NCBI RefSeq assembly: GCF_009914755.1
Contig: NC_060932.1
Length of the DNA: 64,000 bases
Direction: 5' to 3' (one strand)
Source: the human T2T-CHM13v2.0 reference genome, Homo sapiens
Below are positions 43,261 to 47,000 of this stretch, one piece after another. The notes beneath the pieces are model-generated. The model did no database searches, was not told where the DNA came from, and saw nothing but the letters and a program-made list of their open reading frames with translations. Within the stretch, counting starts at the first letter, position 1, and each line of letters starts with the position of its first letter. A program made the position numbers and the translations under genes.

Positions 43261-44030
43261 AGATTAATACACTCAATGTTATATAAATACGTGTGCTACT
43301 TAAATTTTGCACCCTAAGAACTTCACTTGCCTTAACCTAGTTCTGGTCCTGCTCTGCCACCCCTAGCTTAGATTACATAGGAGCACAAAATAGCTTAATT
43401 TACCAAGAGTGCATACATTGGGGAAGAAATAGTTCACCAAAAAGAAATTGGAATACAATTGGTGAAAATAGGCTGAATATATGATGTGTGGCCTGAAAAA
43501 AAATATCCATTACAAACATGAAGATGGCTGTGATATATTGCCAAATTCCCACAACCTTTTATAGCCCCTGTATCCACATCCTTTGTCATGTAAATTTTCA
43601 GCTCCCTCCCTTTGGATCAGGTTTATATGTTTGATGAGCTTTGACCAACAGAATGCAATTGGAATAGAACAATATTGGGAAAATCTTATTTGTTTTAAAA
43701 CTTCATTCAAAACTAGTCCCATGAAAAGGCAAACTGAGTATTATGTTAGCTGTGGGTTTTTCATATATAGTTTTTACATGGAGGTGGTTTTTTTATTTCT
43801 GGTTTGTTGTACATTTTTATCATGAAAGGGTATTACATTTTGTAAAATGCTTTTTTCTGCATCAATTAAGATGATCATGTGGGTTTTCTCCTTCATTCTG
43901 TTAATGTTAATTAATGTTAAATAATTAATGTTAATTAATTATGTTAATATTATGTTAATTAATTCTCATATGTTGAACCATCCTTGCATTCTAGGAATAA
44001 ATTCTACTTGGTCATGGTGTATAATCCTTT
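43261..44030 (+). other. 3' transduction (~770 bp) with AATAAA at 43996-44001
   Basis: Non-SVA, non-host sequence between the SVA poly(A) and the second A-tract/TSD; includes an MLT-like piece (~43530-43660) and antisense old L1 (~43735-44030). Confidence 0.88.
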
Positions 44031-47000
44031 AAAAAAATAAATAAATAAATTAGGTATTGATGGGACGTATTTCAAAATAATAAGAGCTATCTATGACAGA
44101 CCCACAGCCAATATCATACTAAATGGGCAAAAACGGGAAGCATTACCTTTGAAAACTGGCACAAGACAGGGATGCCCTCTCTCACCACTCCTATTCAACA
44201 TAGTGTTGGAAGTTCTGGCCAGGGCAATTAGGCAGGAGAAGGAAATAAAGGGTATTCAATTAGGAAACGAGGAAGTCAAATTGTCCCTGTTTGCAGACGA
44301 CATGATTGTATATCTAGAAAACCCCATTGTCTCAGCCCAAAATCTCCTTAAGCTGATAAGCAACTTCAGCAAAGTCTCAGGATACAAAATCAATGTACAA
44401 AAATCACAAGCATTCTTATACACCAACAACAGACAAACAGCCAAATCATGAGTGAACTCCCATTCACAATTGCTTCAAAGAGAATAAAATACCTAGGAAT
44501 CTAACTTACAAGGGATGTGAAGGACTTCTTCAAGGAGAACTACAAACCACTGCTCAAGGAAATAAAAGAGGATAAAACAAATGGAAGAACATTCCATGCT
44601 CATGGGTAGGAAGAATCAATATCGTGAAAATGGCCATACTGCCCAAGGTAATTTACAGATTCAATGCCATCCCCATAAAGCTACCAATGATTTTCCTCAC
44701 AGAATTGGAAAAAACTACTTTAAAGTTCATATGGAACCAAAAAAGAGCCTGCATCGCCAAGTCAATCCTAAGCCAAAAGAACAAAGCTGGAGGCATCACA
44801 CTACCTGACTTCAAACTATACTACAAGGCTACAGTAACCAAAACAGCATGGTGCTGGTACCAAAACAGAGATATAGATCAATGGAACAGAACAGAGCCAT
44901 CAGAAATAACGCAGCATATCTACAACTATCTGATCTTTGACAAACCTGAGAAAAACAAGCAATGGGGAAAGGATTCCCTATTTAATAAATGGTGCTGGGA
45001 AAACTGGCTAACCATATGTAGAAAGCTGAAACTGGATCCCTTCCTTACACCTTATACAAAAATCAATTCAAGATGGATTAAAGATTTAAACGTTAGACCT
45101 AAAACCATAAAAACCCTAGAAGAAAACCTAGGCATTACCACTCAGGACATAGGCATGGGCAAGGACTTCATGTCCAAAACACCAAAAGCAATGGCAACAA
45201 AAGACAAAATTGACAAATGGGATCTAATTAAACTAAAGAGCTTCTGCACAGCAAAAGAAACTACCATCAGAGTGAACAGGCAACCTACAAAATGGGAGAA
45301 AATTTTCGCAACCTACTCATCTGACAAAGGGCTAATATCCAGAATCTACAATGAACTCAAACAAATTTACAAGAAAAAAACAAACAACTCCATCAAAAAG
45401 TGGGCGAAGGACATGAACAGACACTTCTCAAAAGAAGACATTTATGCAGCCAAAAAACACATGAAAAAATGCTTATCATCACTGGCCATCAGAGAAATGC
45501 AAATCAAAACCACAATGAGATACCATCTCACACCAGTTAGAATGGCAATCATTAAAAAGTCAGGAAACAACAGGTGCTGGAGAGGATGTGGAGAAATAGG
45601 AACACTTTTACACTGTTGGTGGGACTGTAAACTAATTCAACCATTGTGGAAGTCAGTGTGGCGATTCCTCAGGGATCTAGAACTAGAAATACCATTTGAC
45701 CCAGCCATCCCATTACTGGGTATATACCCAAAGTACTATAAATCATGCTGCTATAAAGACACATGCACACGTATGTTTATTGTGGCATTATTCACAATAG
45801 CAAAGACTTGGAACCAACCCAAATGTCCAGCAATGATAGACTGGATTAAGAAAATGTGGCACATATACACCATGGAATACTATGCAGCCATAAAAAATGA
45901 TGAGTTCATGTCCTTTGTAGGGACATGGATGAAATTGGAAATCATCATTCTCAGTAAACTATCGCAAGAACAAAAAACCAAACACCGCATATTTTCACTC
46001 ATGGGTGGGAACTGAACAATGAGATCACATGGACACATGAAGGGGAATATCACACTCTGGGGACTGTTGTGGGGTGGGGGGAGGGGGGAGAGATAGCATT
46101 GGGAGATATACCTAATGCTAGATGATGAGTTAGTGGGTGCAGCACACCAGCATGGCACACGTATACATATGTAACTAACCTGCACAATGTGCACATGTAC
46201 CCTAAAACTTAAAGTATAATAAAAAAAAAAAAAGGAAAAAAAAAGAAAAATGCCTTCAGGAAGAGCCAGGACATGAACACATGTTTTCTTAGGATAGATA
46301 CCACAAGTAACCATACAAGCTGTTGATGATAATTCAACTAATGTTTTAAAAATTGGTAAAGGCTGAGTATGGGTTAACATAAGATTATGGAATCCCTGCA
46401 AGCCACAGAGAAATGGGAGTTCACACTATTCACTGGCTCTTCTCAATAGACTACAAATTTCATCAGGTGTTCACAAGAATGATTGGAGGCAGGGTGAGAA
46501 TCCAAGAAAAATTTACTCATGGCTCATATTTCAAAGAGAAAAATAGCAGCCTGTGTAGCATTGGAATAAAGCCATAGATTCTTCACCCTACCTCTTCTAT
46601 AGCGCACATAGCTTAAGCTTGTAAGAAAAAGGCAATAAACAATGTTGGCCTTGGGACAGTGGTGAAGATCCACTGCATCTGGAGAGAAGAAATAAACATA
46701 GACTCTCTATCTCTGAAAGAAAGGCAACAATACATGCTAAGCTCAGATAAACAGCTCTCTTGCAGTTTAGGAAAGGGCAGTATCATGGAGAAGGCACCAC
46801 TATCAGGGTATTCAGGAACACAATGCCTATCTGAAACTGAGCCTCAATCCAAACAACAGAAAACACTCTGCTCCTCTCCTCAGTCAGCAGCAGGTTCTTG
46901 CTATGAGAGGACAAGAGCATGTGAAAAAATCATCTTATAGCATCAGAGAAAAGAAAAGACCTAAACCTGATAGTGGAGCAAATCCTGAGGAACATCATCT

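What the first reader, a model, noticed from the sequence alone, without database searches (positions are those of the whole stretch)
43735..44122. The inserted RNA's 3' end is antisense to its own target site: candidate RNA-homology/R-loop-guided TPRT
Seen: the last ~300 nt of the 3' transduction (43735-44030) are an old, diverged L1 ORF2 fragment in antisense. Its reverse complement aligns to the host L1 on both sides of the insertion point. By hand, 43967-44030 matches 40444-40507 at 51/64; ~43795-43905 follows 40530-40640 (more loosely through the TSD); and 43735-43770 matches 44087-44122 at 29/36. The ~20% divergence and an AT-rich indel show it was not copied from the host, so this is not twin priming. 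Rough arithmetic: the matching window is ~280 bp of a 6-kb L1 (~5%) and orientation must also be right, but this is one event noticed post hoc. Inference: the RNA tail could pair with the top strand across the target, displacing the T-rich bottom strand that ORF2p nicks and uses as primer, so that cargo RNA helps choose the site. Established models treat L1/SVA targeting as driven by the endonuclease motif, not guided by RNA.
Basis: partly seen in the sequence, partly recalled or inferred. Interest (0 to 1): 0.9.

Follow-up and report, generated by a model that had tools for sequence, protein, structure and literature searches.

The report
Ordinary SVA insertion, coincidental tail homology
A young SVA retrotransposon landed inside an older L1 element while carrying a piece of chromosome 4 whose end is an inverted, decayed copy of the same L1 region; this looks like chance, not RNA-guided targeting.

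Summary
An SVA_F1-type element (40645-44043, 16-bp target-site duplication) sits in the reverse-transcriptase region of a full-length L1. Its 769-nt 3' transduction ends in about 296 nt of old antisense L1 ORF2. That tail aligns, inverted and collinear, to the host L1 on both sides of the insertion point (169 of 220 ungapped columns).

The transduction is contiguous at one other place in this genome, chr4:121.69 Mb, at 99% identity. There the old L1 continues past the poly(A) site, so it was not copied from the host. No SVA lies there, and there are no siblings.

The RNA-guidance idea is not supported:
- It rests on one event.
- At least 30,000 L1 copies carry this segment, which gives a chance rate of at least 0.13% per event across thousands of comparable events.
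- The longest exact complementary run is 9 nt.
- 82% of the pairing lies on the wrong side of the nick for the substrate ORF2p prefers.
- 0 of 25 offspring of the chr10 SVA_F1 source, whose tail carries an Alu, landed in an inverted Alu.
- Published antisense self-insertions are under-represented.

Verdict: ordinary endonuclease-driven insertion plus coincidence.

The parts
36789..40644 (+). Host full-length L1, 5' part (5' UTR, ORF1, and ORF2 up to the RT domain)
   Evidence: The L1 starts at about 36789 (GGGGAGGAGCCAAGATGG). Its own duplication AAGAAAAATG is read at both ends. Translation of 40302-40583 hits RVT_1.
40629..40644 (+). Left copy of the 16-bp target-site duplication AATAAATTAGGTATTG. 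The first-strand nick is between 40628 and 40629 on the bottom strand (5'-ACCTAATTTATT/AAGAG-3').
   Evidence: D14, 100% identical copies
40645..40846 (+). 5' transduced Alu right-arm fragment plus an A-run of about 30
   Evidence: 40646-40828 is 96.7% identical to G000:C10:98285336-98285505 (minus strand); the next best genomic Alu is 83%. The junction with the next part is unique in the genome (1 match, 0 in the control).
40847..41135 (+). GC-rich MAST2-exon-1-derived segment that defines SVA_F1, 5'-truncated compared with other copies
   Evidence: 97-99% identical to the other full-length matches among the 40 scored places, of 80 candidates. One locus on chr1 matches only to 41131 with no VNTR behind it, as expected of the native exon. 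Other copies carry about 75 more upstream bases. The name MAST2 comes from passages of PMC10681720 and PMC12593883.
41136..42720 (+). Remnant of the Alu-like region and the GC-rich VNTR
   Evidence: Direct repeat families D1-D3; 70-85% GC
42721..43261 (+). SINE-R, its own AATAAA (43230-43235) and an A-rich run ending at 43261
   Evidence: Aligns to the chr10 SVA_F1 copy up to 43261; sequence read
43262..44030 (+). 3' transduction of 769 nt from chr4
   Evidence: G000:C4:121692090-121692858 (minus strand), 99% over 1-769, the only other full-length copy. There are 8 mismatches within 43250-44030, and the two sequences part at 44031.
43735..44032 (-). Old, decayed L1 ORF2 (RT) fragment, antisense to the insert. 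It contains an AT-rich (TTAATG/TTAAT)-like insert at about 43900-43965.
   Evidence: The same fragment and insert are present in the chr4 donor, where the fragment continues.
43996..44001 (+). AATAAA poly(A) signal used by the read-through transcript, 29 nt before the end of the transduction
   Evidence: Read. In the donor the sequence continues with non-A bases after the equivalent of 44030.
44031..44043 (+). Short, degenerate poly(A) tail (AAAAAAATAAATA)
   Evidence: divergence from the donor starts at 44031
44044..44059 (+). Right copy of the target-site duplication
   Evidence: D14
44060..46242 (+). Host L1, 3' part (rest of the RT domain, 3' UTR, poly(A))
   Evidence: Translation of 44062-44400 hits RVT_1 at profile positions 101-186; 3' end and duplication read

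Best explanation
This is an ordinary L1-mediated (target-primed reverse transcription) insertion of an SVA_F1-type RNA into a full-length L1. The RNA ran through the SVA's own poly(A) signal at a source on chr4 and ended at an AATAAA that happens to lie inside an old antisense L1 fragment. ORF2p nicked a normal T-rich site on the bottom strand of the host L1 (5'-TTTATT/AAGAG-3'), primed on the poly(A) tail, and left a 16-bp duplication. The antisense L1 piece in the tail is homologous to the very ORF2 segment that was hit, and I read that as coincidence. It played no part in choosing the site.

Shown: the anatomy, the donor locus, the nick site, and the abundance of equivalent targets. Inferred: that the homology had no effect.
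For: - Insertion hallmarks: a 16-bp duplication, a T-rich nick site, a poly(A) remnant, and AATAAA 29 nt upstream of it.
- Donor: chr4 is 99% identical over all 769 nt, and the old L1 continues beyond the poly(A) site.
- Target abundance: a conserved 17-mer of this ORF2 segment, allowing up to 2 mismatches, occurs 30,432 times in the genome against 234 for the reversed control. About 30,200 copies x 262 bp / 3.117 Gb x 0.5 for orientation gives at least 0.13% per event.
- Number of comparable events: 748 3' transductions were counted among 7,554 polymorphic SVA insertions alone (passage of PMC10681720). About one such coincidence is therefore expected even if every tail were as rare a repeat as this one.
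- The host is not a special match. On one scale its summed score is 165 bits, against 159-242 for the 8 genomic L1 pieces fetched.
- The pairing is weak. The longest exact run is 9 nt. Duplex energy is 42-55% of a perfect duplex, and it is near the shuffled background across the nick and duplication.
- Sense insertion into L1 is the favoured orientation anyway: 44,751 sense against 20,044 antisense for Alu into L1 (Table 3 of PMC2836564, passages).
- Natural experiment: 0 of 25 distinct chr10-derived SVA_F1 copies, whose 3' tail carries a sense Alu, lie in an inverted Alu.
Against: - The per-event chance is small, roughly 0.13-0.5%.
- The nick falls in the least complementary 40 nt between two better-matching blocks. 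A two-R-loop story could be built around that.
- No source SVA is present at the chr4 donor, nor at the chr10:98.29 Mb donor of the 5' part, in this assembly. The two-step history is therefore inferred.
- The natural experiment is small. Its upper 95% bound is about 11% guided. Its Alu lies 81-163 nt from the RNA end and may be protein-bound.
- The published orientation bias is confounded by the A-richness of sense L1 and Alu.
Confidence: 0.85

Rival explanations
1. The antisense L1 tail of the RNA paired with the top strand of the host L1 across the target and displaced the T-rich bottom strand, so that cargo RNA helped ORF2p choose and nick this site.
For: Inverted, collinear homology spans the insertion point. 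The per-event chance is low, at least 0.13%. ORF2p nicking is stimulated by single-stranded DNA next to a short duplex (passages of PMC10830416), so a structure that exposes single strands could in principle help.
Against: - There is one event and no siblings.
- 180 of 220 aligned columns lie left of the nick, which is 3' of the nick on the nicked strand. The stimulatory single strand is a 5' overhang of the nicked strand. That corresponds to the bottom strand right of 44060, where only a 40-nt, 80% block pairs with the top strand.
- The tail has the same sense as the bottom strand, so it cannot pair with a single-stranded lagging-strand template.
- An R-loop across the site would make the nick site itself single-stranded, whereas the paper places the cleavage on duplex DNA.
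- With the tail paired antiparallel to the top strand, the RNA's poly(A) would sit about 185 bp left of the primer end.
- The longest exact run is 9 nt and the duplex energy is about half that of the duplex to be displaced.
- 0 of 25 in the chr10-derived family.
- Antisense self-insertions are under-represented: Alu in Alu 1,296 antisense against 3,419 sense, L1 in L1 9,899 against 21,559.
Confidence: 0.04
2. The composite is not a classical transduction from an SVA that once sat at chr4. It is a chimera made during one reverse-transcription event. ORF2p began on a polyadenylated chr4 transcript, switched at the Alu A-run to the poly(A) tail of an SVA RNA, and perhaps switched again to a chr10 Alu-containing RNA. 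Site choice is still endonuclease-driven.
For: Neither donor locus holds an SVA in this assembly. Both junctions lie at A-runs: at chr4 the transduced sequence is preceded by the A-tail of an Alu, and at the 5' end an Alu A-run abuts a 5'-truncated MAST2 segment. The 5' junction is unique in the genome.
Against: Upstream and downstream transduction by SVAs is common: 1,389 5' and 748 3' events among 7,554 insertions. Sources were found for 84% of transduction-bearing insertions in one survey, and the rest were attributed to lost or rare source alleles (passage of PMC12593883). An A-tail of an Alu is a good endonuclease target for a source SVA. The 5' part differs more from its donor (3.3%) than the 3' part does (1.0%), which fits two successive steps.
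Confidence: 0.1
3. The inverted L1 piece arose at the target itself, by twin priming, by gene conversion with the host L1, or by a later rearrangement.
For: Its position matches the host segment.
Against: The piece is only 76-80% identical to the host. It is 99% identical to chr4, including its AT-rich insert, and is contiguous there with 474 nt of unique sequence. The duplication and both junctions are intact.
Confidence: 0.01

Closest known systems
SVA_F1 (MAST2-SVA) elements with 5' and 3' transductions, such as the chromosome-10-derived group
   Same: It has the MAST2-derived 5' segment, VNTR, SINE-R and AATAAA. It carries extra flanking DNA at both ends inside one duplication, a downstream poly(A) signal and a short A-tail. 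Passages of PMC10681720 and PMC12593883 describe this family.
   Different: It does not carry the chr10:100.7 Mb transductions. Its 5' part comes from chr10:98.29 Mb and its 3' part from chr4:121.69 Mb. Both junctions are private to this copy in this genome. The MAST2 segment is 5'-truncated.
R2-type use of RNA 3' sequence that matches the target (downstream rRNA on the template)
   Same: In both cases RNA beyond the element proper is related in sequence to the insertion site.
   Different: In R2, the appended downstream rRNA can base-pair with the target-site primer, which is the nicked strand (passages of PMC11194090). That RNA has the same sense as the top strand. Here the tail has the opposite sense, so it cannot pair with the primer. 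The site is one of at least 30,000 similar ones.
ORF2p preference for a duplex next to single-stranded DNA (lagging-strand template)
   Same: This is the only established structural, non-sequence determinant of L1 nicking.
   Different: The stimulatory single strand is a 5' overhang of the nicked strand, about 10 bp from the nick (PMC10830416). Here 82% of the possible RNA pairing lies on the other side.
Twin priming (inverted 5' part of an L1-mediated insertion)
   Same: An inverted L1-like segment lies next to an L1-mediated insertion.
   Different: The inverted segment is at the 3' end, belongs to the transduced chr4 DNA and differs from the host by about 23%. My definition of twin priming is recalled and comes from no call.

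Membership tests
L1-mediated (TPRT) insertion | Target-site duplication of about 7-20 bp flanking the insert | tested here: met
   16 bp, identical copies at 40629-40644 and 44044-44059. The range is quoted in the introduction of PMC7617806.
L1-mediated (TPRT) insertion | First-strand nick at a T-rich / A site on the bottom strand | tested here: met
   5'-ACCTAATTTATT/AAGAG-3'
L1-mediated (TPRT) insertion | 3' poly(A) tail next to the downstream duplication | tested here: met
   AAAAAAATAAATA at 44031-44043, short and degenerate. Shorter tails on transduction-bearing SVAs are reported in a passage of PMC12593883.
SVA_F1 | MAST2 exon-1-derived sequence replacing the hexamer and most of the Alu-like region | tested here: met
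   40847-41135 matches the other full-length copies among the 40 scored places (of 80 candidates) at 97-99%, and one chr1 locus that lacks a VNTR, taken to be the native exon. The gene name comes from the literature, not from an annotation of that locus.
SVA_F1 | VNTR, SINE-R and AATAAA in order | tested here: met
3' transduction | Extra sequence between the element's own poly(A) and the terminal poly(A), inside the duplication | tested here: met
   43262-44030
3' transduction | That sequence is contiguous at one donor locus and continues there without a poly(A) | tested here: met
   chr4:121692090-121692858, 99%. The old L1 continues about 140 nt beyond.
3' transduction | A source element lies immediately upstream at the donor | tested here: not met
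   In this assembly an Alu A-tail, not an SVA, abuts the sequence. Other assemblies could not be searched.
Twin priming | The inverted segment is copied from the same RNA or element | tested here: not met
   The segment is chr4 DNA, 76-80% identical to the host.
RNA-homology-guided TPRT (R2-like primer pairing) | The RNA 3' region can base-pair with the nicked-strand primer | tested here: not met
   The tail has the same sense as the bottom (nicked) strand. The R2 rule comes from passages of PMC11194090.
RNA-homology-guided TPRT (any form) | Insertions with the same tail recur in complementary sequence | not testable with these tools
   No second insertion carries this transduction in this genome.
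RNA-homology-guided TPRT (any form) | Families whose tail carries a common repeat are enriched in inverted copies of that repeat | tested here: not met
   Chr10-derived SVA_F1: 0 of 14 copies in this genome and 0 of 12 non-reference copies looked up. One copy is shared, so these are 25 distinct copies.

The most novel reading that the evidence does not exclude
The antisense L1 tail did bias the choice of site. One route is transient pairing with an exposed top strand. Another is pairing with nascent sense-L1 RNA of the + strand lncRNA transcript (CASC21) that runs through the host L1, which would tether the SVA ribonucleoprotein near its homologue. L1-mediated insertion would then have a weak, RNA-homology-assisted component that only shows in cargo with repeat-derived tails.
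Probability: 0.03. Interest if true: 0.85.

Novelty: already known. Interest (0 to 1): 0.15.

Why it matters
If cargo RNA could steer L1-mediated insertion, that would overturn the view that site choice rests on the endonuclease motif and on replication-linked DNA structure, and it would suggest a route to programmable insertion. The evidence here does not point that way. The case is a fully traced example of a doubly transduced SVA_F1 whose two donor loci are both empty in this assembly, and it lies in the 8q24 lncRNA region (CASC21/CASC8 introns). It also yields a usable chance rate, at least 0.13% per event for this tail, and a ready-made family test for anyone who wants to examine the idea genome-wide.

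Tried and rejected
- Sibling test. The whole genome was searched with the 769-nt transduction.
- Parent search by the 5' junction. The junction is unique, so no parent was found.
- Larger survey of SVA_F1 3' ends. I replaced them with a small targeted fetch.
- 5' flanks of six loci that share the chr10 5' transduction. No inverted Alu lay at the junction. However, only three of the six (L028, L032, L033) appear with the 3' transduction, so supersedes this count.
- Rows dropped. The rows at 83% identity or less, and the rows covering only query positions 1-86 or less, were not examined. They lack the chr10-specific stretch and are other SVA ends.
- Table S5 of PMC12593883. I saw 23 of its 65 rows and looked up the first 12 in Table S2. 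The rest were not examined.
- Ranking the host among all genomic matches. This was not possible, because only 40 of 5,796 candidates were scored. On the 8 loci fetched, the host is comparable.
- Literature search for RNA- or R-loop-guided L1 targeting. 138 papers held at least 4 of the 5 terms. None of the 12 listed proposes it by title or by the start of its abstract. This is one search, not proof that the idea is absent from print.
- Gene conversion and twin priming were rejected on the donor evidence.
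Full report
WHAT IS THERE

The window holds a full-length L1 on the + strand, from about 36789 to 46242. 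It has its own duplication AAGAAAAATG and is about 6.04 kb long without the insert.

A 3,399-bp composite element interrupts it at 40645-44043. The element is flanked by a perfect 16-bp target-site duplication, AATAAATTAGGTATTG (D14). Translations of the host on both sides hit the reverse-transcriptase family RVT_1, at profile positions 5-75 on the left and 101-186 on the right. The insertion therefore lies inside the ORF2 RT domain.

From 5' to 3' the insert consists of:
- an Alu right-arm fragment with an A-run of about 30 (40645-40846);
- a GC-rich segment (40847-41135) that matches the other full-length copies among the 40 scored places, of 80 candidates, at 97-99%. It also matches one chr1 locus with no VNTR behind it, which I take to be the native MAST2 exon 1. 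This is the hallmark of SVA_F1 (the family is described in passages of PMC10681720, and PMC12593883);
- a VNTR;
- SINE-R with AATAAA at 43230-43235 and an A-run;
- 769 nt of non-SVA sequence (43262-44030);
- a 13-nt degenerate A-tail.

The first-strand nick site, read on the bottom strand, is 5'-ACCTAATTTATT/AAGAG-3'. This is an ordinary L1 endonuclease site.

CHECK OF THE OBSERVATION

Searching the whole window with 43262-44030 gives only three non-self hits. All are inverted and all lie in the host L1:

| Tail | Host | Length | Identity |
|---|---|---|---|
| 43949-44030 | 40525-40444 | 82 nt | 76.8% |
| 43814-43905 | 40623-40533 | 92 nt | 76.1% |
| 43737-43776 | 44120-44081 | 40 nt | 80% |

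These come, and (I1-I3) reports the same arms. Once the insert is subtracted the blocks are collinear. In all, 169 of 220 ungapped columns match. The reverse-complement translation of the tail is a stop-riddled RT fragment.

WHERE THE PIECES CAME FROM

3' part. The assembly could be searched. The 769-nt stretch has exactly one other full-length copy, at G000:C4:121692090-121692858 (minus strand), 99% identical. There are 8 mismatches up to 44030, and the two sequences part at 44031, where the A-tail begins.

At chr4 the old antisense L1 continues for about 140 nt past that point. AATAAA lies 29 nt before it. The AT-rich insert is present there too. So the tail comes from chr4. It was not copied from the host, and twin priming and gene conversion are excluded.

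Upstream at chr4 there is a complete Alu whose A-tail abuts the transduced sequence. No SVA is present.

5' part. The Alu fragment at the 5' end is 96.7% identical to chr10:98285336-98285505, against 83% for the next best Alu. That locus also has no SVA. The junction between the A-run and the truncated MAST2 segment is unique in the genome.

Most likely history. A 5'-truncated SVA_F1 sat after an Alu A-run at chr10:98.29 Mb and picked up a 5' transduction. A descendant sat in the Alu A-tail at chr4 and picked up the 3' transduction. The order of these two steps cannot be told. Both sources are absent from this assembly. Missing sources are not unusual: one survey found sources for 84% of transduction-bearing insertions and attributed the rest to lost or rare alleles (passage of PMC12593883). 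A one-step template-switch chimera remains a minor rival.

IS THE CO-LOCATION MORE THAN CHANCE?

A conserved 17-mer of the segment, allowing two mismatches, occurs 30,432 times in the genome against 234 for the reversed control. About 30,200 copies x 262 bp is 0.25% of 3.117 Gb. Halved for orientation, that is at least 0.13% per event. It is a lower bound, because more decayed copies are missed and L1-mediated insertions favour AT-rich, L1-rich DNA (the latter is recalled).

The event was noticed after the fact, among very many comparable events. Polymorphic SVAs alone include 748 3' transductions among 7,554 insertions (passage of PMC10681720). That already predicts about one such case even if every tail carried a repeat as rare as this one. 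Tails with Alu or L1 3' ends have far higher chance rates (my estimate, with genome fractions recalled).

The host is not an outstanding match. Its summed score is 165 bits, against 159-242 bits for the eight genomic L1 pieces fetched.

MECHANISM

Pairing strength. The tail and the top strand are 77% complementary, with no exact run above 9 nt. With RNA parameters as a proxy, the duplex energy is 42-55% of that of a perfect duplex. Across the nick and duplication it is close to shuffled background, -8.7 against -5.4 +/- 2.0 kcal/mol. An R-loop would therefore replace a perfect duplex with one about half as stable.

Geometry. The primer is the bottom strand to the right of the nick. [quoted passage not shown] It cuts duplex DNA about 10 bp from the junction, which mimics a lagging-strand template (passages of PMC10830416). 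Here that single strand would be the bottom strand to the right of 44060.
- The tail has the same sense as the bottom strand, so it cannot pair with it.
- To expose that strand by an R-loop, the tail would have to pair with the top strand on the right. Only a 40-nt, 80% block exists there, starting 21 nt beyond the duplication.
- The other 180 of 220 aligned columns lie on the left, 3' of the nick, where displacement offers no known advantage.
- With the tail paired antiparallel to the top strand, the poly(A) would sit about 185 bp from the primer end.

Known precedent. In R2, appended downstream rRNA can base-pair with the target-site primer (passages of PMC11194090). That is the opposite sense to the tail here.

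NATURAL EXPERIMENTS

The chr10:100.72 Mb SVA_F1 source has a 3' transduction of 19 nt, a full sense Alu, an A-run and 83 nt of unique sequence. This corresponds to the AluSp transduction of PMC12593883 Table S5.

In this genome, 13 other copies carry the full junction and one carries part of it. I fetched their 3' flanks. All 14 align to the source through the transduction. None lies in an inverted Alu. One lies in the A-rich linker of a sense Alu, one lies just 5' of a sense Alu, and the nearest inverted Alu is 116 nt away.

For 12 non-reference copies from Table S5, the published 'TE at insertion site' column gives:

| TE at insertion site | Copies |
|---|---|
| none | 6 |
| L1 | 4 |
| MLT1H1 | 1 |
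| AluJr | 1 |

The AluJr case has a duplication that reads as the sense linker, and it is the same locus as one of my 14. That makes 25 distinct copies with 0 in an inverted Alu. About 1.25 would be expected by chance at roughly 5% each (Alu fraction recalled), and the upper 95% bound is about 11%.

On the largest scale, nested-repeat counts show that antisense self-insertions are the minority. Alu in Alu is 1,296 antisense against 3,419 sense, and L1 in L1 is 9,899 against 21,559. Insertion into L1 in sense is favoured about 2.2-fold (Table 3 and text passages of PMC2836564). This bias is confounded by the A-richness of sense strands, so it argues only against a strong general effect.

VERDICT

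The observation and the transduction anatomy are confirmed. The RNA-guided reading is not supported, and several lines weigh against it. The feature is an ordinary SVA_F1 insertion of a known kind, and the homology is best read as coincidence (confidence about 0.85).

The boldest reading left open is a weak homology-assisted bias, for example through nascent sense-L1 RNA at the locus. I put it at about 3%.

LIMITS

- The analysis covers a single assembly.
- Only 40 candidates are scored per genome search.
- Only 12 of 65 Table S5 rows were looked up.
- Duplex energies use RNA-RNA parameters.
- Several genome fractions are recalled rather than measured.

Noticed in passing
window 40645-40846; L057 (G000:C10:98283836-98287005): The 5' Alu fragment comes from chr10:98.285 Mb (96.7% over 183 nt). 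In this genome it is followed there by another Alu right arm, not by an SVA. At the junction, the chr10 sequence after the A-run (TTAGCCAGGCATGG) resembles the truncated MAST2 start (TTGCCGGCCATGG). This could be microhomology at a 5' junction or at a template switch.
   Followed up: partly
L002 (G000:C4:121690590-121694358): The chr4 donor of the 3' transduction carries no SVA in this assembly. The transduced sequence starts right after the A-tail of a full-length Alu. A source SVA, if it existed, sat in that A-tail and is absent or lost here.
   Followed up: partly
window 43291-43895 against L002: Of the 8 differences between the transduction and its donor, 4 are A in the window copy and G in the donor (43431, 43447, 43484, 43895). 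The direction of change is unknown without an outgroup, and the numbers are too small to call a deamination signature.
   Followed up: no
window 40584-40586: The host L1 has an in-frame TAG in the RT domain (GAT GCA GAA TAG GCC) just upstream of the insertion, so its ORF2 is broken independently of the SVA.
   Followed up: no
L055 (G000:C4:188661820-188662740): One copy of the chr10 3' transduction matches the junction query only from the A-run onward (positions 62-151, 98%). It is either an extremely 5'-truncated SVA or an 'orphan' transduction.
   Followed up: no
L049, L050 (chr5:142.53 Mb, chr3:108.83 Mb): Two of the 14 chr10-derived copies end at a more distal poly(A) site, about 80 nt further into chr10 flank. 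This matches the 163-bp class of 'Chr10 seq' in Table S5 of PMC12593883.
   Followed up: no
window 43900-43965: An AT-rich, microsatellite-like run (TTAATG/TTAAT units) is inserted in the old L1 fragment. It is shared with the chr4 donor, so it predates the transduction.
   Followed up: yes
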